Source of the DNA: a virus | Lineage: Duplodnaviria > Caudoviricetes | Direction: 5' to 3' (one strand) | Virus record (IMG/VR): IMGVR_UViG_3300011008_000049 | Coordinates: 1 to 64,000 of that record | Length of the DNA stretch: 64,000 nucleotides | Part shown: positions 6,448 through 47,618 of the stretch, piece after piece | How positions within the stretch are numbered: the stretch's first letter is position 1 | Layout of the letters: each line of letters starts with the position of its first letter | Notes under the pieces: generated by a model | What the model saw: the letters and a program-made list of their open reading frames with translations, nothing else | Databases searched by the model: none | What the model was told of the DNA's origin: nothing | Position numbers and translations under genes: made by a program

Positions 6448-6511
6448 AGCCGAAACGGGCGGAAGCCCGTCACCGGAAAGATGGGCTATCCGGTCTGATG
6501 ATGGCAGCCCG

Positions 6512-7135
6512 ATGGAGGAAAATATGAAAAGAATATCAGAGCTTTTAACACTTGAAAAGGAATCCGATGTAAAAATCGCATATTGTGAAATCATATCGGA
6601 TTATACAAACGAAAAGGAAAATACAAGAACACGAATTTTATTTGATGAGCATACCGGAAAATATTATTTCCACCAGATGAAAGACGGAAAAATTTTGAAA
6701 TGTTTTGAAATCGCTTTATCGTGGAAACCGTTTGAAAAGATTTATATATTCTGTTTTACGCTGGATGATATGCACGTTTACGAAATCGACTCACGGCAGC
6801 CGGAGAAAATCGAAATTAAAAAGTTGGAGGAAAATCAGATAAGCGCCGGAATGAAATGCGAATATGACGGAATGACGGTTGAATATGAATCGGAAAATTC
6901 TTTGAAATTCAATGGAAAATCTATTGAAGTGATACCGGAATCCGGATATGTTTTCAAGTTGAGAAAACGGAAGATATACGCCCAGGACGGAGCAAAAGGA
7001 TTATATATCTTTTTGGAAAATATCGCGGTGAATGGAAATTTTGCCGGACACGGTGAAGATATTAAAATCGGAAATTTTGTTTTAATGTCGCCGGATAGAA
7101 ATTACTGGATGAGATTTAAGGATATGTATTTATAA
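6512..7135 (+). CDS. hypothetical protein
   Basis: 207-aa ORF in early operon. Confidence 0.75.
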   Translation: MEENMKRISELLTLEKESDVKIAYCEIISDYTNEKENTRTRILFDEHTGKYYFHQMKDGKILKCFEIALSWKPFEKIYIFCFTLDDMHVYEIDSRQPEKIEIKKLEENQISAGMKCEYDGMTVEYESENSLKFNGKSIEVIPESGYVFKLRKRKIYAQDGAKGLYIFLENIAVNGNFAGHGEDIKIGNFVLMSPDRNYWMRFKDMYL

Positions 7136-34656: not shown

Positions 34657-36087
34657 ATGGGTGATTTTCAGAAACTTACTGATTTCGGGAATCTCTATAA
34701 TTCTTGCCAAGTTTCTTTAAGAGGTAAAGGCAAGAAAAAGAGTGCGGCGAAGTTCAATGTTATGGCACTCGAACACCTATGCGTGATGAAAAGACAATTA
34801 TTGAGTCGCACATACAAAATTTCGCCGTATTCTGAATTTATCGTAAAAGAACCAAAAACAAGAGTTATCAAGTCAGGTTCTTTCAAAGATAAGGTGTTGC
34901 AGCATTGTCTATGTGATTATGTTTTGCTGCCTACAATGAAAGACATTTTTATAACAGATAATTATGCCGGACAGATAGGAAAAGGAACATTATTCGGTCT
35001 TGACAGATTATCTGAAAATCTCCAAGAGTTTTATAATGAGCATGGGAGCAAAGGATATATTCTAAAATGTGATATAACTAAATTCTTTTATTCAATCAAT
35101 CATGATTTGATGAAAGAAAGTATCAAAGAATATTTCCAGGATGATGGTATTCAATGGATATGTAATCTTTTCATAGACAGCGTAGATGGTGATGGACTTC
35201 CTCTCGGAAATCAAAGCAGTCAAGTTTTTGCACTTATATTCCTGAATGGTCTTGACTATTTTATAAAAGAAGAATTGAAGTGCGAATACTATGGTCGCTA
35301 TATGGATGACTTCTATCTGTTGTCAAATGATAAGGATTATCTAAAATACTGTTTACAACGGATTACAGAATTTTTATCTGGTTTGCGCCTATCACTAAAT
35401 AGTAAAACAGAAATTGTTCCAATGAGCAAAGGAATAAGATTTCTCGGTTTTCATACATATCTTACGGACGATGGAAAAGTAATAAGAAAATTAAATGGAG
35501 AGAACAAAAGACAAATTAAAAAGCGTTTAAGAATTTATTCAAAATTGGTACTTGCCGGAATAATGACAAGAGAAAAATTTGATGAAAGTTATAATTCTTG
35601 GCGCAATCACGCTTCTCATGGGAATTGCTTTAAGTTGTTATGTGAGATTGATAAATATGTAGAAGAATTGTTTGGAGAGAAGAAAATGGAAACCAGAATT
35701 ATTATTGCAGGTAGCAGAGGATTTACGGATTATCAATATCTTAAATCTAAAATGGAACAGTTTATCAAAGAACATCCGAATCAAAGGTTTGTCATTATAA
35801 GCGGAACTGCCAATGGAGCGGATAAACTTGGAGAACGATTTGCGATTGAAAAAGGAATTGAACTCCGCAGATTTCCAGCAGAGTGGAATAAATATGGTAA
35901 ACGAGCTGGATATTTAAGGAACGTTCAAATGTTGGATTTTGCAGCACAAGCTGACGGAGAATCTGTTCTTATGGCGTTTTGGGACGGTAGCAGTAAAGGC
36001 ACAAGGCATATGGTTAAAATTGCAAAGAACGCCGGAATTACCGTCAATGTATTTTTGAAAGAAGAAAAGAACAATGAGAATAATTAG
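34657..36087 (+). CDS. DGR reverse transcriptase fused to C-terminal SLOG (YspA/DUF2493-like) domain
   Basis: LKCDITKFF, GLPLGNQSSQ, RYMDD, FLGF; from aa 344 IIIAGSRGF..ISGTANGAD..AGYLRN..AFWDGSSKGT. Confidence 0.9.
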   Translation: MGDFQKLTDFGNLYNSCQVSLRGKGKKKSAAKFNVMALEHLCVMKRQLLSRTYKISPYSEFIVKEPKTRVIKSGSFKDKVLQHCLCDYVLLPTMKDIFITDNYAGQIGKGTLFGLDRLSENLQEFYNEHGSKGYILKCDITKFFYSINHDLMKESIKEYFQDDGIQWICNLFIDSVDGDGLPLGNQSSQVFALIFLNGLDYFIKEELKCEYYGRYMDDFYLLSNDKDYLKYCLQRITEFLSGLRLSLNSKTEIVPMSKGIRFLGFHTYLTDDGKVIRKLNGENKRQIKKRLRIYSKLVLAGIMTREKFDESYNSWRNHASHGNCFKLLCEIDKYVEELFGEKKMETRIIIAGSRGFTDYQYLKSKMEQFIKEHPNQRFVIISGTANGADKLGERFAIEKGIELRRFPAEWNKYGKRAGYLRNVQMLDFAAQADGESVLMAFWDGSSKGTRHMVKIAKNAGITVNVFLKEEKNNENN

Positions 36088-36912: not shown

Positions 36913-37003
36913 GGAGAGGTAATCCTAATTGGTAAGGAAGCAGTTTGCTAAACTGTTAGTAACCAGCAATGGCGTGTGAGTTCGAGTCTCGCCCTCTCCG
37001 CCA
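36913..37003 (+). tRNA. tRNA-Ser(GCT)
   Basis: Long variable arm, loop TTGCTAA, CCA end. Confidence 0.9.
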
Positions 37004-37006
37004 TTT

Positions 37007-37083
37007 AGGAGAGTAGTTTAACGGTAGAACTCCGGTCTCCAAAACCGATGTAGATGAGGGTTCAAATCCTTCCTCTCCTGCCA
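37007..37083 (+). tRNA. tRNA-Trp(CCA)
   Basis: Loop CTCCAAA, CCA end. Confidence 0.88.
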
Positions 37084-37165: not shown

Positions 37166-37243
37166 AGTGGCTATTGATAATCTTCCTTCTTTAATAGAAG
37201 AAATTATTTAAGAAAGTAGATTTTAGATTATCAGATTTCCACT
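37166..37243 (+). ncRNA. Y-RNA-like element 1
   Basis: AGTGGCTA-TGATAATCT-TCCTTCT...AGATTATCA-GATTTCCACT. Confidence 0.7.
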
Positions 37244-37258
37244 CCGTTCCTTTTTGCA

Positions 37259-37332
37259 CGGCTATGTAGAAACTTCCTTCTTTATATAAAACCAAAATCA
37301 AATATTTATAGAAATAGTTTCTGCAATTACCG
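37259..37332 (+). ncRNA. Y-RNA-like element 2
   Basis: CGGCTA-TGTAGAAACT-TCCTTCT...AGTTTCTGCA-ATTACCG. Confidence 0.7.
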
Positions 37333-37361
37333 ATAAAATTAAATTACAAGGAGAAAAGAAA

Positions 37362-39599
37362 ATGAACGCAACTGAAAAAATCCTACTTCGCCGTAAGCAC
37401 TTTCTGATTGTCAATCCGGGTGATTCAGAGTATCAGCAGGATAAGAGTGAAAAAACTCTTGTAATTACGGCATTGAAAAATGTGCAATCTCTTGGATTCA
37501 CTTTTTCACAGGCACTTCTCGAATCACTGTTCCATTTTACGAAAACCGAGTTCAAGGCTTTTTATAAGGCGCTTATTCCTGAACTGAAGGAATTGGTTGG
37601 TGCTGATGTTACATACGAGCCGATGTACCCGAATTTTCCGGAGCAGGTCGCAAATGCAGATGATGTTGAACTTTTCATCAATGCAATCATTCACTATTGG
37701 TCTTTCGGAACTTTGATGCCGGAATATGAGAAAGATGAGCGTTTACCTCTGATTGACGATAATAAAATGACCGTTTTATCTATCGGAACGCATGAGGATT
37801 TAATGAAAATCTTCTCTAATTTGGTTGAAAGCAAAACTTCCCTTTCTATCCAGGACAAAGAGGATATTACCACTGTTGTAAAGTCTTGCACTGATTATTC
37901 TGACTATCTGCCGGACGTTATTCCTCTGAAAGAGAATGTGGCTTTTATCGGAAAACTTATTATTGAAGAAGCTCCTATCAAATCCGCAAAGGCAATTCAG
38001 AAGTATTTCAAGACTGCAACTGATGTTCTTCGTCTTGTTACCGCTCTGTCTGATGGAGATATTAGTCTTGCAACAAAGACAAAGTTTAGGAATTTGAAGC
38101 GCAGAGAACGCAGAATGATTCTTGATTTACTTGCTGGCTGCGGAAATATCACAGAAGATTTGTTCCGTTATCAGTATGAATGGATTAGAGTTGCAGAAAT
38201 TCTTCATCCCTTTGAATACAAGATTGCGAAGTATAAGAATGTAAATGCTTCTTTCAACACGCTTCGTAATGAGCATAAGCCTCTTATGTTTGGTGGTAAA
38301 GTTCAGAATGCTATTCTTGCGAAAGATATGCGTACTGCTGCTAACTTGTTAAAGACCAGACCTGGCGAATTTGCGAGACAACTTGATAAGGTTATCCGCG
38401 ACTCTGACAATGTGAACTATGTTCTGAACTGTTTCAAAGAAATTGCGGTAGAGATTTCGACTCCGGTACTCCTTCAGGTAAGACAGCATTTCATTGGTCG
38501 TATGGCTGATGAGAAAGCACCTATCAGAGTATTCTTCCCCAAGGGCAATCTTGCAAGAGCAACATCTATCAAGAATGAACTTCCGGAAATTCCCATGAAT
38601 GTTTGTAAGAACGTTGCAAGGATTTGCAGAGATGCACTTATTGAGCAGTACAGAAATAAAGATTTCATCGGAAATGTTTATATTGATGATGAGTTAAAGA
38701 ATTATCTCGTACCGTTCAGCCAGAGAAGCGCAAGCAAAGCCGTTAAGACTATTGTTCGTGGTAGCCAGCTCCCTATTTCCAACGATGCAAAAGCAATCAG
38801 AGGATTTATTTGGTGGACTAACACCGACAAGGGAAAGGGTTATTATTATGATGACGGTAGAGTTGACATTGACCTTTCAGCAGCAATTTATGATGAGAAT
38901 TGGAGATATGTTGAACACGTTTCATATACAAATATCCGCTCTCATAAGTACAGAGCATATCACTCTGGTGATATTACCAACGGTGGAAGTGTAAACGGAA
39001 AAGGCGTTGCCGAATTCCTTGATGTTGACATTGATGCTGTTGCCAGAAACGCAGGTAGATATATCGTCTATCAGGTTTACAATTATACCAGTCAGAAATT
39101 CTCTGAACTTCCTAATTGCCGTTTCGGTTGGATGGAAAGAGCGGATGTTGACAGTGGAGAAATCTTTGAACCTACCACGGTAGAAATGAAGATGGATTTG
39201 ACCGCCGAAGGAACTACCGCTATCCCTGTAATCTTTGATTGTGTAGAGCGTAAATTCATCTGGTGTGATATGAACCTTGGCATTGAGCGTTCTTATTATG
39301 GTGGCAATAACCTTGAAAGCAATTTTTCCGGCGTAACTGCGACCTGCTATGCAATGACTCACTTGAACAAGCCAAACATCTATGACCTTGTTATGCTGAA
39401 TGCGGTTGCAAGAGGCAATGTCGTAACCGACAGAAACAATGCCGACATCATTTTCAGTAATGATACGACAGTTCCTTATGAGATTGTAACCGAAATTGAT
39501 GAAATTACCGGTACTGAAAAGAGAGCAATTAAAGAAAAGACCGATGTTCCGATTATCACAGCGTTTGATACGGACTACTTTATGGGACAACTCCTTTAA
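37362..39599 (+). CDS. large helical protein with C-terminal TerD-like domain; candidate Ro60/TROVE-like RNA-binding protein
   Basis: TerD-like VDIDLSA..YTN..HSGDIT..AEFLDVD; helical N-region with TATDVLRL and RPGEFARQLD; flanked by Y-like RNAs. Confidence 0.6.
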   Translation: MNATEKILLRRKHFLIVNPGDSEYQQDKSEKTLVITALKNVQSLGFTFSQALLESLFHFTKTEFKAFYKALIPELKELVGADVTYEPMYPNFPEQVANADDVELFINAIIHYWSFGTLMPEYEKDERLPLIDDNKMTVLSIGTHEDLMKIFSNLVESKTSLSIQDKEDITTVVKSCTDYSDYLPDVIPLKENVAFIGKLIIEEAPIKSAKAIQKYFKTATDVLRLVTALSDGDISLATKTKFRNLKRRERRMILDLLAGCGNITEDLFRYQYEWIRVAEILHPFEYKIAKYKNVNASFNTLRNEHKPLMFGGKVQNAILAKDMRTAANLLKTRPGEFARQLDKVIRDSDNVNYVLNCFKEIAVEISTPVLLQVRQHFIGRMADEKAPIRVFFPKGNLARATSIKNELPEIPMNVCKNVARICRDALIEQYRNKDFIGNVYIDDELKNYLVPFSQRSASKAVKTIVRGSQLPISNDAKAIRGFIWWTNTDKGKGYYYDDGRVDIDLSAAIYDENWRYVEHVSYTNIRSHKYRAYHSGDITNGGSVNGKGVAEFLDVDIDAVARNAGRYIVYQVYNYTSQKFSELPNCRFGWMERADVDSGEIFEPTTVEMKMDLTAEGTTAIPVIFDCVERKFIWCDMNLGIERSYYGGNNLESNFSGVTATCYAMTHLNKPNIYDLVMLNAVARGNVVTDRNNADIIFSNDTTVPYEIVTEIDEITGTEKRAIKEKTDVPIITAFDTDYFMGQLL

Positions 39600-39609
39600 T
39601 TGATTGTTA

Positions 39610-39676
39610 TTGCGGCTATGGATTCCCTTCCTTCTAATAATAATATGGGATTATAAAGGGAATCCGATTTCCGCAA
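39610..39676 (+). ncRNA. Y-RNA-like element 3
   Basis: TTGCGGCTAT-GGATTCCC-TTCCTTCT...GGGAATCC-GATTTCCGCAA. Confidence 0.7.
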
Positions 39677-39687
39677 ACCGACATTTT

Positions 39688-39758
39688 GCGGCTGAAATAC
39701 TCATCCTTCTTTTACATAAAAACTTGAAATTTTTTAATTCAGAGTATTTAATTTCCGC
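39688..39758 (+). ncRNA. Y-RNA-like element 4
   Basis: GCGGCTG-AAATACTC-ATCCTTCT...GAGTATTT-AATTTCCGC. Confidence 0.7.
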
Positions 39759-39774
39759 GATTTTCCTTTTCTTG

Positions 39775-39853
39775 CGGCTATTGTTTCTCATCCTTCTATG
39801 GCTGGTTACAGCACTTTACTGGTAATAAAGAGATTTAGAGAAACGCATTTCCG
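39775..39853 (+). ncRNA. Y-RNA-like element 5
   Basis: CGGCTATT-GTTTCTC-ATCCTTCT...GAGAAAC-GCATTTCCG. Confidence 0.7.
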
Positions 39854-39881
39854 ACATTATTTTAGAAATGAGATAAGTAGA

Positions 39882-41142: not shown

Positions 41143-41271
41143 GCGGCTGGATGATACCATCCTTCTAATGTAATGGGAACTATGTGTCGTTGGTTCGAGT
41201 CCAACCGTCCCGGCAATCGGGACGTGGCGCAGTTGGTAGCGCAATAGTATTTAGGGTATCGAAATTACCGC
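41143..41271 (+). ncRNA. Y-RNA-like element 6 with permuted tRNA module (YrlA-type)
   Basis: Same terminal stem motif enclosing T-arm GTTGG-TTCGAGT-CCAAC, loop-closed acceptor stem, then D-arm GCGC-AGTTGGTA-GCGC. Confidence 0.8.
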
Positions 41272-41305
41272 TTAAAAATAAATATAAATATTTTTGAAGA
41301 ACCTC

Positions 41306-41334
41306 TTGACATATTTATAAAAGTGTGATATAAT
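41306..41334 (+). promoter_or_regulatory. sigmaA promoter
   Basis: TTGACA-N17-TATAAT; nearly identical to promoter at 63852. Confidence 0.8.
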
Positions 41335-41361
41335 GACCATGTAATCGAAAAGGATATATGC

Positions 41362-41437
41362 GCGGCTGGAAATGCTCATCCTTCTATCAAGGAACAAACT
41401 TTTAATTTGTCAATCTAATAGAGCATAAAATTTCCGC
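41362..41437 (+). ncRNA. Y-RNA-like element 7
   Basis: GCGGCTGGAA-ATGCTC-ATCCTTCT...GAGCAT-AAAATTTCCGC. Confidence 0.7.
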
Positions 41438-41448
41438 ATTACATATCT

Positions 41449-41587
41449 GTCGGCTGGTTGGATTCATCCTTCTATTTACATAATGCCAAACCGCCAATCG
41501 TGGGTTCAAATCCCACCTTCTTACGGAGTAAGATGTAGCCAAGTGGATAAGGCAGCGGTCTATTAAAGAGAATCCAAAATTACCGAC
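41449..41587 (+). ncRNA. Y-RNA-like element 8 with permuted tRNA module (YrlA-type)
   Basis: GTCGGCTGG-TTGGATTC-ATCCTTCT; ACCGC..GTGGG-TTCAAAT-CCCAC, closed acceptor stem, TAGCCAAGTGGATAAGGCA-GCGGT; GAATCCAA-AATTACCGAC. Confidence 0.8.
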
Positions 41588-43759: not shown

Positions 43760-43835
43760 TGCGGGATAGAGAAGCGGTCATCTCACGACCCTCATAAGGT
43801 CGGAATCGTGGGTTCGAGTCCCACTCCCGCAACCA
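43760..43835 (+). tRNA. tRNA-Met(CAT), initiator-like body
   Basis: Loop CTCATAA; fMet-like acceptor/D arm but no GGG/CCC anticodon stem. Confidence 0.85.
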
Positions 43836-43838
43836 AAT

Positions 43839-43915
43839 CTGGATGTAGTTCAGTTTGGTAGAACGCTGCATTTGGGATGCAGAGGTCGCAGGTTCGAGTC
43901 CTGTCATCCAGACCA
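43839..43915 (+). tRNA. tRNA-Pro(TGG)
   Basis: Loop TTTGGGA, CCA end. Confidence 0.93.
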
Positions 43916-43940: not shown

Positions 43941-44753
43941 ATGAAGTACGATGCACTTGGTCAGAGAATGAAAAAGTATGAATTCATTACAAGAACACAT
44001 CTCATTCCGAGAATGCCGGTGATTATTAGAATTGATGGTAAGGCGTTTCATACTTTTACGAGAGGGTTTAAGAAACCATTTGATGAAATTCTTGTAAAGA
44101 CCATGCAGGAAACAATGAAATATTTGTGTGAAAACATTCAAGGTTGTGTTCTTGGATATACGCAGTCTGATGAAATCACGTTGGTTCTTGTTGATTACAA
44201 GAAATTAGACTCATGCTCATGGTTCGATTACAACATTCAAAAGTGTGCGAGTGTTGCGGCAAGTATGGCTACAATGGCATTTAACAGGGAATTCGCACAT
44301 CAGGTCAGACGATATAAGGAAGAACGGATTAAAGATAAAACACATATATGGAATAGTTATAAAGACAATTATTATGCAACCATATATAACGCCATTAGTA
44401 AGGGAGCTATGTTCGATGCTCGTTGTTTCAATATTCCAAAGGAAGAAGTTTGTAATAACATTCTTTGGAGACAAAATGATGCAACAAGAAATTCAATAGA
44501 AATGGTTGGTCATGCGAATTTTTCACAATCGCAACTTCACAAAAAGAGTTGTAATGATATTCAGGATATGTTGATGTTGGAACGTGGAATCAATTGGAAC
44601 AATTTCCCGACACATCTGAAACGTGGTAGTTGTTGTATTCGTGAGGAATCAGATGAATCTGGCAGAACAAGATGGGTTGTTGATACTGAAATTCCGATTT
44701 TCAAAGGAGACGGAAGAAAGTACATTGACGATTTGATTTTCATAGGAGAATAA
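43941..44753 (+). CDS. Thg1-like tRNA(His) guanylyltransferase / 3'-5' polymerase
   Basis: RIDGKAFH, YTQSDEI, FDAR, WRQ.DA.RNS. Confidence 0.9.
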   Translation: MKYDALGQRMKKYEFITRTHLIPRMPVIIRIDGKAFHTFTRGFKKPFDEILVKTMQETMKYLCENIQGCVLGYTQSDEITLVLVDYKKLDSCSWFDYNIQKCASVAASMATMAFNREFAHQVRRYKEERIKDKTHIWNSYKDNYYATIYNAISKGAMFDARCFNIPKEEVCNNILWRQNDATRNSIEMVGHANFSQSQLHKKSCNDIQDMLMLERGINWNNFPTHLKRGSCCIREESDESGRTRWVVDTEIPIFKGDGRKYIDDLIFIGE

Positions 44754-44757
44754 AGAT

Positions 44758-45012
44758 ATGAGTTACCGCAGAAGTAAAGAGCGTAATAGGAGACTTAAAA
44801 AGTTATATGAAGAAACGAAACATTCTTACGGAAGCGGAGCATGGTATGACGAAGAAAAAGGTAGATACATAAGATACTATCCATCAAGTAGCACAGGATA
44901 TACAAAATATCTCCGTAGAATATCCAACAGAAAAATCCGCAGAATGAAAGATATGTCGCTGAAAGGTTGTCAATATAAAAAAGCATTTGACTATTGGTGG
45001 ACACTGTTTTGA
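44758..45012 (+). CDS. small basic hypothetical protein
   Basis: Arg/Lys-rich 84 aa. Confidence 0.7.
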   Translation: MSYRRSKERNRRLKKLYEETKHSYGSGAWYDEEKGRYIRYYPSSSTGYTKYLRRISNRKIRRMKDMSLKGCQYKKAFDYWWTLF

Positions 45013-45020
45013 GGTGAATA

Positions 45021-45500
45021 ATGAGACGATTATTTATAATGAGAAAAGACTTACATATGAGTCCTGGTAAACTTGCGGCACAGGTTGGACACTGTTCAGA
45101 GGTCTTTTGGCTGAATTGGATTAGAGGAAATGTTGCATTAAGAAGTGTTTCTGAAAGAGAGGAAATTCAGCCAGATACAGGAGAACCGGTTAAGATTTCA
45201 GAAATTCATTATGAAATCAAAGGAAATGTTGATTACAAAATATATGAAGATTATATTTGCGGTTCTATTGTTAAAACGATATGTGAGGCAAGAAATAAAA
45301 GTCATTTATTAAAAGCAATGGATATGGCTTATGAACTTGGGCTGATTGAAGGAACTGATTTTGGGCTGATATTTGATAATTGTATGACAGAACTTATTCC
45401 AGAAGAAGCAAATGGAACTACATTGACCGGAATTTGGTTCAGACCTCTTGATGATGATATTGCACATTCTATCAGCAAGAAATATCAACTTTATAAATGA
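45021..45500 (+). CDS. peptidyl-tRNA hydrolase, Pth2 type
   Basis: RKDLHMSPGKLAAQVGH, D.C.TE..P, T..G..P. Confidence 0.8.
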   Translation: MRRLFIMRKDLHMSPGKLAAQVGHCSEVFWLNWIRGNVALRSVSEREEIQPDTGEPVKISEIHYEIKGNVDYKIYEDYICGSIVKTICEARNKSHLLKAMDMAYELGLIEGTDFGLIFDNCMTELIPEEANGTTLTGIWFRPLDDDIAHSISKKYQLYK

Positions 45501-46850: not shown

Positions 46851-47618
46851 ATGATTTACATAACCGGTGATACCCATGCACAGTTTAATAGGTTTTCTAC
46901 AAAGAATTTTCCGGAACAAAAGAATATGACAAGAGATGATTATGTCATTATCTGCGGTGATTTCGGGGGAATTTGGGATTATATCTTATCAAGTTCAACG
47001 GAAACTTATTGGTTAAATTGGCTTGCAGAGAAATCATTTACGCTTCTTTTTGTAGATGGAAACCATGAAAACTTTGATAGGCTAAAAGAATTTCCTGTTG
47101 TTAGTTATCACGGCGGTAAGGCACATCGAATAAGAGACAACATTTATCATCTTATGAGAGGATATGTGTTTGAGTTTGAAGGCAAAAAGTTCTTTACATT
47201 TGGCGGTGCGCAAAGTCACGATATTCAAGATGGTATTCTCGATATAAAGAACTATGAATCATTGACCGATTTAGTACATGATTATAACAAGAGAACCAAG
47301 AAAGGTGAAATGTTGCGAATAAATCATATTTCATGGTGGGCTAATGAACTTCCGGAGAAATATGAAATGAAACGCGGAATTGAGAATTTGAAAAAGGTAA
47401 ATTTTGAAGTTGACTATGTGATTTCTCATTGTTTGCCGCAAGATGTTTGTTCTGCTGCCGGGTATCGAAGCGCGGACAAATTGACGATGTATTTTAATTC
47501 TTTGATACTTGACCACAAGTTAAAATTCCATAGATGGTATTGTGGTCATTATCACAGAGAGCAAGCAATTTTCGGAAAATTTATTATCAAGTATGAAAAC
47601 ATTGAAAGGATTTTATAA
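46851..47618 (+). CDS. calcineurin-like metallophosphoesterase
   Basis: GDTH, GDFG, GNHE, GHYH. Confidence 0.88.
   Translation: MIYITGDTHAQFNRFSTKNFPEQKNMTRDDYVIICGDFGGIWDYILSSSTETYWLNWLAEKSFTLLFVDGNHENFDRLKEFPVVSYHGGKAHRIRDNIYHLMRGYVFEFEGKKFFTFGGAQSHDIQDGILDIKNYESLTDLVHDYNKRTKKGEMLRINHISWWANELPEKYEMKRGIENLKKVNFEVDYVISHCLPQDVCSAAGYRSADKLTMYFNSLILDHKLKFHRWYCGHYHREQAIFGKFIIKYENIERIL

What the first reader, a model, noticed from the sequence alone, without database searches (positions are those of the whole stretch)
41143..41587. Two elements carry circularly permuted tRNA domains
Seen: in elements 6 and 8 the order is T-arm, loop-closed acceptor stem, D-arm, and the anticodon stem (ACCGC/GCGGT in element 8) opens into the Y-like stem. 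There is no anticodon loop and no CCA end. Knowledge: this is the YrlA Y RNA topology. The two modules differ in sequence (AGTTGGTA vs AAGTGGATAA D-loops), suggesting independent capture of different tRNAs. tRNA scanners would miss or miscall them.
Basis: partly seen in the sequence, partly recalled or inferred. Interest (0 to 1): 0.8.

Follow-up and report, generated by a model that had tools for sequence, protein, structure and literature searches.

The report
Permuted tRNA bodies on phage handle RNAs
Two small RNAs of a 153-kb gut phage each carry a complete tRNA body in rearranged order on a conserved stem "handle", and the handle RNAs always sit beside a gene for a protein partly shaped like Ro60, so together they look like an undescribed cousin of the Ro60/Y-RNA particle.

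Summary
Elements E6 (41143-41271) and E8 (41449-41587) each hold a T arm, a loop-closed 7-bp acceptor stem, a D arm and a 5-bp anticodon stem that opens into a longer stem. In 21 relatives from other phages all five helices covary. When the two halves are swapped back in silico, ARAGORN of 21 as tRNAs; in native order it calls none.

The order of the arms is that of YrlA, but these RNAs are not YrlA members. They score 33.9 and 20.5 bits against a threshold of 69, they lack the Rsr-binding motif, and the phage has no TROVE gene.

The tRNA body is cargo on a different, very conserved handle: GGCU, a covarying helix, UCCUUCU, the cargo, the return strand of the helix, then UUUCC. Ten RNAs of this phage share the handle. 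The handle RNAs flank a 745-aa gene in 74 of 80 phage loci and also lie next to its homologs in bacteria of many phyla. Rfam has no family for them.

The protein carries a TerD domain. Otherwise it is closest in predicted fold to Ro60 (Z 8-9), which is moderate evidence.

The most likely reading is a Ro/Y-like particle whose phage versions display tRNA parts. This scan reached the same reading earlier on other DNA. I found no paper describing it.

The parts
41143..41271 (+). E6, a handle RNA with E6-type (class I-like) permuted tRNA-body cargo. It starts 8 nt after the SHMT stop codon.
   Evidence: R1 41.3 bits. R2 120.8 bits, E 1.7e-28. YrlA model positions 23-85 at 33.9 bits. Coordinates.
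41143..41166 (+). E6 handle, 5' side: P1 GCGG, loop CUGG, P2 strand (AU)GAUACC, invariant A-UCCUUCU.
   Evidence: P2 covaries; GGCU and UCCUUCU are invariant.
41179..41248 (+). E6 tRNA body: anticodon-stem 3' strand, variable region, T arm, acceptor closed by GCAAU, U8-G9, D arm, A26, anticodon-stem 5' strand.
41255..41271 (+). E6 handle, 3' side: P2' GGUAUC(GA), AAUUA, P1' CCGC.
41306..41334 (+). Perfect sigma-70-type promoter (TTGACA, 17 nt, TG-TATAAT; 12 of 12 matches) placed to drive E7 and E8.
41362..41437 (+). E7, a sibling handle RNA whose cargo is an anticodon-arm-like hairpin ACAAA-CUUUUAA-UUUGU (Lys UUU type).
   Evidence: R1 72.2 bits. Hairpin seen.
41449..41587 (+). E8, a handle RNA with E8-type permuted tRNA-body cargo. 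P1 is GUCGG/CCGAC and P2 is UUGGAUUC/GAAUCCAA.
   Evidence: R2 110.9 bits, E 6.8e-26. YrlA model positions 23-85 at 20.5 bits. Coordinates.
41490..41559 (+). E8 tRNA body: ACCGC, CAAUC, T arm, acceptor closed by CGGAG, UA, D arm, A, GCGGU.
37167..37333 (+). E1 and E2, sibling handle RNAs upstream of the 745-aa gene. E1 starts 3 nt after the encoded CCA of tRNA-Lys.
37362..39599 (+). 745-aa partner gene: N-terminal helical domain with Ro60-like predicted fold, TerD domain at about 471-665, and a C-terminal alpha/beta part.
39612..39854 (+). E3, E4 and E5, sibling handle RNAs downstream of the 745-aa gene, with small hairpin cargo (E4 CUUGAAA, E5 CUGGUAA loops).

Best explanation
E6 and E8 are two members of a ten-copy family of small structured 'handle-and-cargo' RNAs in this phage.

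The handle has these parts: a terminal helix P1 that joins the 5' and 3' ends; a conserved pyrimidine-rich internal loop; a covarying 6-8 bp helix P2; an invariant UCCUUCU strand; and a 3' UUUCC. I infer that the handle is the binding site for the 745-aa protein encoded between the RNA arrays. That protein has a Ro60-like helical domain with an inserted TerD domain.

The tip of the handle carries exchangeable cargo. In E6 and E8 the cargo is a whole tRNA body in circularly permuted order. The acceptor stem is closed by a loop, and the anticodon stem is opened and continues into the handle. It should therefore fold into the tRNA elbow, but it cannot be charged and cannot decode.

By analogy with Ro60-YrlA, the particle would use this tRNA mimic to engage proteins that recognise tRNA shape. 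These could be tRNA-directed nucleases of host defence, or tRNA processing, modification or repair enzymes. The RNA would act either as a decoy or as a tether that brings such proteins to the ring protein.

What is shown: the RNA structures, their conservation, and the gene-RNA linkage. What is inferred: protein binding, the Ro60 relationship, and the decoy or tether function.

The permuted order most simply arose from the junction of two tandem tRNA genes: the 3' half with its encoded CCA, a spacer, then the 5' half of the next copy.
For: RNA structure:
- Handle covariation score 0.604 against 0.157 in shuffles, 0 of 500 reaching it.
- Handle plus cloverleaf covariation 0.677 against 0.217, with the acceptor covarying at 7 of 7 pairs.
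- De-permuted modules are called as tRNAs in 21 of 21 cases.

Family size:
- Ten copies in this genome by model R1 (8 in the window plus 2 beyond it; one R1 match to E8 is partial).
- R2 scores fall into two groups. There are 46 elements with a tRNA body at 72 bits or more in phage loci, including E6 and E8. Handle-only copies score 50 bits or less.

Linkage to the protein gene:
- A homolog of the 745-aa gene lies beside the RNAs in 14 loci that were found by the RNA pattern alone.
- In 80 loci found by the protein alone, R1 gives 308 hits. All are on the gene's strand and directly flank it; 74 of 80 loci have at least one hit, down to 35-38% protein identity.
- The same holds in 80 bacterial loci from many phyla: 136 hits, all on the gene's strand and nearly all directly flanking it.

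Protein fold:
- The AF2 model has pLDDT 93.3.
- The TerD domain matches at Z 16. After that, all four Ro60 structures are the best long matches (2nvo Z 8.2 with 324 residues aligned; 9l5y, 1yvp and 9nen at Z 5.6-7.1).
- In a search of 48,161 chains that does not rely on Foldseek, the N-terminal domain's two best hits are Ro60s (Z 8.9 over 271 residues and Z 8.4 over 239 residues). Other helical hits cover only about 97 residues.

Precedent and context:
- Known phage Ro60 genes have Y-like RNAs directly upstream (PMC12135203), and YrlA has the same tRNA-like arrangement (PMC4201824).
- Sibling cargo looks like anticodon arms.
- Nearby genes are tRNA arrays, a Thg1-like gene and PTH2.
- Origin: the phage tRNAs all encode CCA and are 1-5 nt apart within their runs. 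Two relatives have ACCA as the acceptor loop, and several others have ACAA.
Against: - There is no RNA-level or binding data.
- The Ro60 similarity is structural only and of middling Z. Helical repeats can reach such values by chance.
- Pfam TROVE is not detected in 54 family members even at E up to 10.
- The handle has none of the known Ro-binding motifs.
- Bacterial copies carry only minimal cargo, so tRNA mimicry cannot be the ancestral role of the particle.
- The target of the mimic is unknown.
Confidence: 0.6

Rival explanations
1. E6 and E8 are true YrlA-type Y RNAs that bind a canonical Ro60/Rsr, for example the host's.
For: They have the same arm order as YrlA, and the YrlA model aligns to both. 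Some gut bacteria have TROVE proteins: the control hit in Bacteroides thetaiotaomicron.
Against: Both score well under the gathering threshold, and no better than tRNA-tRNA junctions in the same window. Model positions 1-22 and 86-114, the Ro-binding stem, are not matched. The GNCGAA motif is absent. No TROVE gene was found in 6 phage genomes. The handle co-varies in location with a different protein gene.
Confidence: 0.05
2. They are circularly permuted tRNA genes, as in Cyanidioschyzon merolae. The handle would be removed, the anticodon loop joined, and the acceptor loop opened to give working tRNAs.
For: The 3' half precedes the 5' half. The junction bases can be read as an opened anticodon loop: E6 AU|UGGGA is Pro-like and E8 CU|GCCAA is Gly-like. 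Two relatives keep ACCA in the acceptor loop. The phage carries a Thg1-like gene and tRNA arrays.
Against: The acceptor loops are not conserved (2-7 nt) and most have no CCA. The supposed anticodon bases vary among orthologs. The RGGA stretch also complements the invariant UCCU, and it occurs in E7, which already has a closed Lys-type loop. The same handle carries non-tRNA cargo, partial tRNA cargo, and in bacteria almost no cargo. No splicing endonuclease or ligase was identified among the ten neighbouring genes I annotated; the rest of the genome was not scanned for them.
Confidence: 0.07
3. The RNAs act alone, without the 745-aa protein, as decoys for host tRNA-cleaving defence nucleases. 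The handle would only stabilise them or direct their processing out of tRNA operons.
For: The cargo is either tRNA bodies or anticodon-arm-like hairpins with canonical 7-nt loops (Lys UUU, Ser UGA, Pro UGG, Cys GCA and others). The RNAs are embedded in tRNA operons 3-6 nt after tRNA-Lys.
Against: The handle sequence is nearly invariant from phages to Cyanobacteria and Chloroflexi, and it is always next to the same gene. That argues for a specific protein partner. Bacterial copies have no tRNA-like cargo.
Confidence: 0.15
4. They are decayed tRNA pseudogene fragments or chance look-alikes with no function.
For: None beyond the absence of a closed anticodon loop and of CCA.
Against: There are compensatory changes in every helix across 21 sequences, and tertiary-contact bases are invariant. 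46 conserved copies occur at fixed positions beside the gene.
Confidence: 0.01

Closest known systems
YrlA Y RNAs with Ro60/Rsr (Rfam RF02553; Chen et al. 2014, PMC4201824; phage phiLo Ro60 with Yrl1/Yrl2, PMC12135203)
   Same: The 5' and 3' ends pair into a stem that carries the protein-binding part. The apical module is a T arm, a loop-closed acceptor stem and a D arm, without an anticodon loop or CCA. The RNA genes lie directly beside the gene of a large protein with a helical Ro60-like fold. Both systems occur in bacteria and in phages.
   Different: The handle sequence and shape differ (GGCU / UCCUUCU / UUUCC, with no GNCGAA motif). The RNAs score under the family threshold. The partner protein has no detectable TROVE sequence signature and contains a TerD domain. 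A phage carries up to about ten paralogous RNAs with exchangeable cargo: a full tRNA body, single arms, anticodon-like hairpins, or plain hairpins. The RNAs are embedded in tRNA operons.
Circularly permuted tRNA genes of Cyanidioschyzon merolae and other algae (reviewed in PMC4090602)
   Same: The 3' half of the tRNA is encoded upstream of the 5' half, and the acceptor ends are joined by a short linker.
   Different: In the algae the ends form a splicing motif and the product is a working tRNA with a complete anticodon loop. Here the flanks are a conserved protein-type handle, the loop bases are not conserved, and no maturation machinery was identified.
Phage-encoded tRNAs that replace host tRNAs cut by defence nucleases (established knowledge, not searched in papers here)
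   Same: Phage RNAs of tRNA shape located in tRNA arrays, plausibly connected with host attacks on tRNA.
   Different: Those are functional, chargeable tRNAs. E6 and E8 cannot be charged or decode.

Membership tests
YrlA / Y RNA-like (Rfam RF02553) | tRNA-like module in the order T arm, closed acceptor stem, D arm | tested here: met
   The model aligns positions 23-85 to both E6 and E8. Covariation supports the fold. De-permutation test passed.
YrlA / Y RNA-like (Rfam RF02553) | Score at or above the curated gathering threshold (69 bits) over the whole model | tested here: not met
   33.9 and 20.5 bits, covering only positions 23-85 of 114. tRNA-tRNA junctions in the window score 24.8 and 19.0 bits.
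YrlA / Y RNA-like (Rfam RF02553) | GNCGAAN0-1G motif near the 5' end, the presumed Rsr contact (PMC4201824) | tested here: not met
   The 5' parts read GCGGCUGGAUGAUACCAUCCUUCU and GUCGGCUGGUUGGAUUCAUCCUUCU. The motif is not present.
YrlA / Y RNA-like (Rfam RF02553) | Encoded next to a Ro60 (TROVE) gene | tested here: inconclusive
   No Pfam TROVE match in this phage, in 5 related phage genomes, or in 54 homologs of the neighbouring protein. However, that neighbour's best long structural matches are Ro60s.
YrlA / Y RNA-like (Rfam RF02553) | Binds Ro60/Rsr | not testable with these tools
   Needs co-purification or a gel-shift assay.
Handle-and-cargo RNA family defined here (model R1) | P1 closing helix, GGCU, covarying P2 ending in C-G, invariant UCCUUCU, 3' UUUCC, on the same strand as and adjacent to the 745-aa gene family | tested here: met
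   E6 scores 41.3 bits with R1 and 120.8 with R2. E8 scores 110.9 with R2. Covariation; linkage.
tRNA (Rfam RF00005 / ARAGORN) | Contiguous cloverleaf with an anticodon loop and free acceptor ends | tested here: not met
   No tRNA call at 41143-41587. Native order gives 0 of 21 calls. A tRNA is called only after in-silico de-permutation with a dummy loop.
Permuted tRNA genes (algal type) | 3' half upstream of the 5' half | tested here: met
Permuted tRNA genes (algal type) | Flanks that restore a conserved 7-nt anticodon loop, and processing to a mature tRNA | tested here: inconclusive
   The junction bases can be read as split loops but vary among orthologs and overlap a handle feature.
Ro60 / TROVE (partner protein) | TROVE sequence signature (Pfam PF05731) | tested here: not met
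   No match for the window protein or for 54 relatives at E up to 10.
Ro60 / TROVE (partner protein) | HEAT-repeat ring fold followed by an alpha/beta (vWA) domain | tested here: inconclusive
   2nvo Z 8.2 (324 aligned, rmsd 5.3). N-terminal domain alone: 2nvo_A Z 8.9 (271 aligned) and 9l5y_B Z 8.4 (239 aligned), ranked 1 and 2 of 48,161 chains. Foldseek gives probability 1.00 and E 4.9e-3 for 9l5y_B. The Z values lie in the range that helical repeats can reach by chance.

The most novel reading that the evidence does not exclude
The handle RNAs and the Ro-like/TerD protein form a previously unrecognised, ancient ribonucleoprotein found in bacteria of many phyla. Large gut phages have turned it into a modular display system for tRNA parts: whole tRNA bodies on E6 and E8, anticodon arms on their siblings. 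The display would trap or redirect host enzymes that attack or process tRNAs during infection.
Probability: 0.35. Interest if true: 0.9.

Novelty: new variant of a known kind. Interest (0 to 1): 0.78.

Why it matters
If the inference holds, Ro60/Y RNA has a widespread and unnoticed sister system. The protein family has about 2,800 clusters at 50% identity, and its RNA partner is missing from Rfam.

In this system tRNA mimicry, so far known from YrlA, is taken much further. One conserved handle presents interchangeable tRNA pieces.

This would give a concrete way to study how phages counter tRNA-directed host defences and how Ro-type rings are aimed at substrates. It would also provide a natural scaffold for displaying RNA modules.

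For annotation, it shows that dozens of tRNA-derived genes per phage clade are invisible to tRNA scanners.

Tried and rejected
- **Known RNA families.** Rfam at relaxed thresholds shows nothing over the handle, either in the window or at the bacterial copies. Only the tRNA-like core hits YrlA.
- **Self-cleaving ribozymes.** I compared the handle by eye with the HDV-like (theta) ribozyme fold, because E1 abuts a tRNA. The handle is a plain nested stem and lacks the nested double pseudoknot. No ribozyme family matched.
- **Type III antitoxin repeats, CRISPR-like repeats, retron msr/msd.** Rejected. The copies differ in sequence but keep their pairing, they flank a non-RT and non-Cas gene, and their cargo varies.
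- **Recent copies of the phage's own tRNAs.** Rejected. The best similarity scores are about 20 of 65.
- **Anticodon-loop relic.** Reading the junction as an opened loop (E6 AU|UGGGA, E8 CU|GCCAA) stays ambiguous. RGGA also complements the invariant UCCU and occurs in E7.
- **TROVE by sequence.** Not found in this phage, in five large related phages, or in 54 homologs.
- **Protein atlas search.** It gave only unnamed clusters.
- **Literature.** Searches for YrlA and phage, permuted tRNA and bacteriophage, TROVE/TerD/RING, SCO0854, Ro60/phage/Y RNA, and TerD/Y RNA found no description of this system.
- **Bacterial gene neighbourhoods.** In Priestia and Paenibacillus the neighbours are unrelated genes (GNAT, transposase, an McrC-like nuclease, LacI), so no operon partner emerged.

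Full report
**1. What is at 41143-41587**

The stretch lies between an SHMT gene (Pfam match 5.6e-140) and a small N6-methylase-like gene. It holds three RNA-like units. The window is the first 64 kb of a 152.6-kb phage record that is 99% complete.

Reading the sequence, E6 (41143-41271) and E8 (41449-41587) each contain the following parts, in this order:
- a 5-nt strand
- a 5-nt variable region
- a canonical T arm
- a 7-bp helix closed by a 5-nt loop
- two bases in the position of U8-N9
- a canonical D arm
- one base
- the complement of the first 5-nt strand

This is a tRNA body written 3' half first, with the acceptor ends joined and the anticodon stem left open. ARAGORN and the Rfam tRNA model report nothing here, although they find 13 ordinary tRNAs in the window.

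**2. Is it more than chance?**

The Rfam YrlA model aligns both units over the same model positions, 23-85. The scores are 33.9 bits (E 1.2e-5 for the 551-nt stretch) and 20.5 bits.

The stronger evidence is comparative. A pattern scan and a protein-anchored scan of IMG/VR brought in many related loci. I aligned 21 elements of this kind from about 15 phages (A4). Results:
- The proposed structure has 91.5% of cells paired, against 67.9% in shuffles and about 40% when the partners are slid.
- The covariation score is 0.677 against 0.217, and 0 of 500 shuffles reach it.
- All seven acceptor pairs, all five anticodon-stem pairs and three T-stem pairs show changes on both sides.
- The bases that build the tRNA elbow are invariant.

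I then rejoined the two halves in silico with a dummy 7-nt loop. ARAGORN called a tRNA in 21 of 21 cases. In native order it called 0 of 21.

A covariance model of the whole element (R2) scores E6 at 120.8 bits and E8 at 110.9 bits. It separates 46 body-bearing elements (72 bits or more) from handle-only siblings (50 bits or less) in the phage loci.

**3. The stem is a conserved handle shared by ten RNAs**

The 'elements 6 and 8' of the finding belong to a series: E1 and E2 (37167-37333), E3 to E5 (39612-39854) and E6 to E8. Two more copies lie at 150457-150652 on the minus strand, just upstream of tRNA-Glu.

All share the same layout: NNGG-CU(A/G)N, a 6-8 bp helix ending in C-G, (A/U)UCCUUCU, the cargo, the return strand of the helix, N-AUU(U/A)-CCNN.

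On 21 small-cargo members from this and other phages the helix covaries strongly: score 0.604 against 0.157, with 0 of 500 shuffles reaching it. GGCU, UCCUUCU and UUUCC are invariant, although the search pattern itself fixed part of that.

Cargo varies between copies:
- full tRNA bodies, of two conserved lineages (E6-type and E8-type)
- bodies that also keep a closed anticodon arm (for example L039:3734-3868 and L111:6271-6400)
- single T or D arms
- hairpins with canonical anticodon-like 7-nt loops (CUUUUAA in E7, CUUGAAA in E4; elsewhere UUUGGGA, CUGCAAA and others)
- plain hairpins

**4. The handle RNAs are tied to one protein gene**

E1-E2 and E3-E5 bracket a 745-aa gene (37362-39599) that has no Pfam match.
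- A homolog lies next to the RNAs in 14 loci that had been found by the RNA pattern alone.
- In 80 loci fetched by the protein alone, model R1 finds 308 copies. All are on the gene's strand, immediately upstream or downstream. 74 of 80 loci have at least one, down to 35-38% protein identity.
- The pair is not limited to phages. In 80 bacterial loci R1 finds 136 copies, all on the gene's strand and nearly all directly flanking it. These loci come from Paenibacillus, Brevibacillus, Priestia, Niallia, Cyanobacteria, Chloroflexi, Acidobacteria, Bacteroidota, Armatimonadota and others.
- The bacterial copies have minimal cargo.
- No Rfam family covers them.
- Gene neighbours in two bacterial genomes are unrelated to one another.
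- tRNA-body cargo appears in the phage clade and in Clostridia or Lachnospiraceae-type MAG contigs, but not in the Bacillales copies.

**5. The protein**

The family is large: 2,843 clusters at 50% identity. NCBI names it 'TerD family protein'. It matches NCBIfam NF041916 (MXAN_6230/SCO0854 family) below that model's cut-off.

The AF2 model is confident, with pLDDT 93.3 and pTM 0.91.
- Residues 471-665 are a TerD domain (Z 16).
- The next best long matches are all four available Ro60 structures: D. radiodurans Rsr (Z 8.2, 324 residues aligned), phage phiLo Ro60 (Z 7.1), Xenopus Ro (Z 6.3) and human Ro60 (Z 5.6). Each spans model residues ~142-745.
- The N-terminal 476 residues, modelled alone and compared with 48,161 chains without Foldseek, have Rsr and phiLo Ro60 as ranks 1 and 2 (Z 8.9 over 271 residues, Z 8.4 over 239 residues). 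Other helical-repeat hits cover only about 97 residues.

These Z values are moderate, and there is no TROVE sequence signal. I therefore call the protein Ro60-like in fold and rate common ancestry as likely, not established.

**6. How it most likely works**

Shown: the structured RNAs, a permuted tRNA body that keeps every elbow determinant, and an obligatory genomic pairing with the protein.

Inferred: the handle binds the protein, as Y RNA stems bind Ro60. The cargo gives each particle a specificity. For E6 and E8, the cargo offers a tRNA-shaped surface to tRNA-recognising proteins but cannot be charged or decode.

The phage context points to the tRNA conflict between phage and host, with the RNA acting as a decoy or a tether:
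- tRNA arrays on both sides
- E1 starting 3 nt after tRNA-Lys, and the same arrangement in 9 other loci
- Thg1-like and PTH2 genes nearby
- anticodon-arm siblings

E7 and E8 have their own perfect promoter. E6 follows the SHMT stop codon by 8 nt.

The permuted order is what the junction of two tandem tRNA genes gives. The YrlA model indeed also hits tRNA-tRNA junctions in this window. The phage tRNAs all encode CCA with short spacers. Two relatives have ACCA as the acceptor loop, and several have ACAA.

**7. Rivals**

- True YrlA bound by a canonical Rsr fails three defining tests (section 8 and the membership table).
- Permuted tRNA genes that mature into tRNAs cannot be excluded without RNA data. 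Against it: the loops and 'anticodons' are not conserved, and the same handle carries non-tRNA cargo.
- Protein-independent decoys fit the cargo, but not the near-invariant handle kept across phyla next to one gene.
- Pseudogenes are excluded by the covariation.

**8. Comparison with what is known, and novelty**

The closest known system is Ro60 with YrlA. It shares the same RNA logic and the same gene-RNA adjacency, and it is also known from phages (PMC4201824, PMC12135203).

The differences are:
- a different handle
- no TROVE signature
- an inserted TerD domain
- large paralogous RNA arrays with swappable tRNA parts

Six literature searches found no description of this system.

Earlier follow-ups of this scan reached the same reading on other genomes. 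The system is therefore not new to the scan, but it appears to be new to the literature and to Rfam.

I class it as a new variant of a known kind.

**9. Limits**

- There is no profile-profile test against TROVE.
- E-values from my models are rough, because calibration was shortened.
- Part of the handle conservation in alignment A2 was imposed by the search pattern. The protein-anchored scans do not have that bias.

Noticed in passing
window 34657-36087 (+): A 476-aa reverse transcriptase (RVT_1; closest to group II intron, Drt3a and retron RTs) fused to a YAcAr/SLOG domain. It lies just upstream of the first tRNA array. Its RNA partner and its role are unknown.
   Followed up: partly
window 6448-6513 (+): A type II hammerhead ribozyme match above the Rfam gathering score (43.8 bits).
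   Followed up: no
window 43941-45500 (+): A Thg1-like 3'-5' nucleotidyl transferase (tRNA 5'-end repair type) and a PTH2 peptidyl-tRNA hydrolase follow the second tRNA array. A metallophosphoesterase lies at 46851-47618.
   Followed up: partly
window 39798-39867: The longest ORF for the SHMT gene starts inside handle RNA E5. The Pfam match begins at residue 31, so the true start codon is probably downstream of E5.
   Followed up: no
window 43806-43864 and 36975-37030 (+): The Rfam YrlA model gives 24.8- and 19.0-bit matches across ordinary tRNA-tRNA junctions. This is a built-in source of false YrlA calls in tRNA arrays, and a hint at how permuted bodies arise.
   Followed up: yes
G000:C1:150457-150652 (-), outside the window: Two further handle RNAs lie directly upstream of tRNA-Glu and tRNA-Thr, far from the 745-aa gene.
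   Followed up: partly
L039:3734-3868, L045:1715-1848, L111:6271-6400: A third cargo type: a permuted tRNA that keeps a closed anticodon-like arm in front of the T arm. All four arms are present, and the break lies between the D arm and the anticodon arm.
   Followed up: partly
L177:42-1934 (+): In a Paenibacillus chromosome the RNA-protein module sits next to a DUF2357 plus PD-(D/E)XK (McrC-like) gene. In Priestia it sits next to a transposase. This suggests a location in variable or defence regions.
   Followed up: no
L177:2829-2889 and other bacterial handle RNAs: The 3' UAGAG next to the helix can pair either with the end of P2 or with the UUCUA of the invariant strand. This may be an alternative register or only low sequence complexity.
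   Followed up: no
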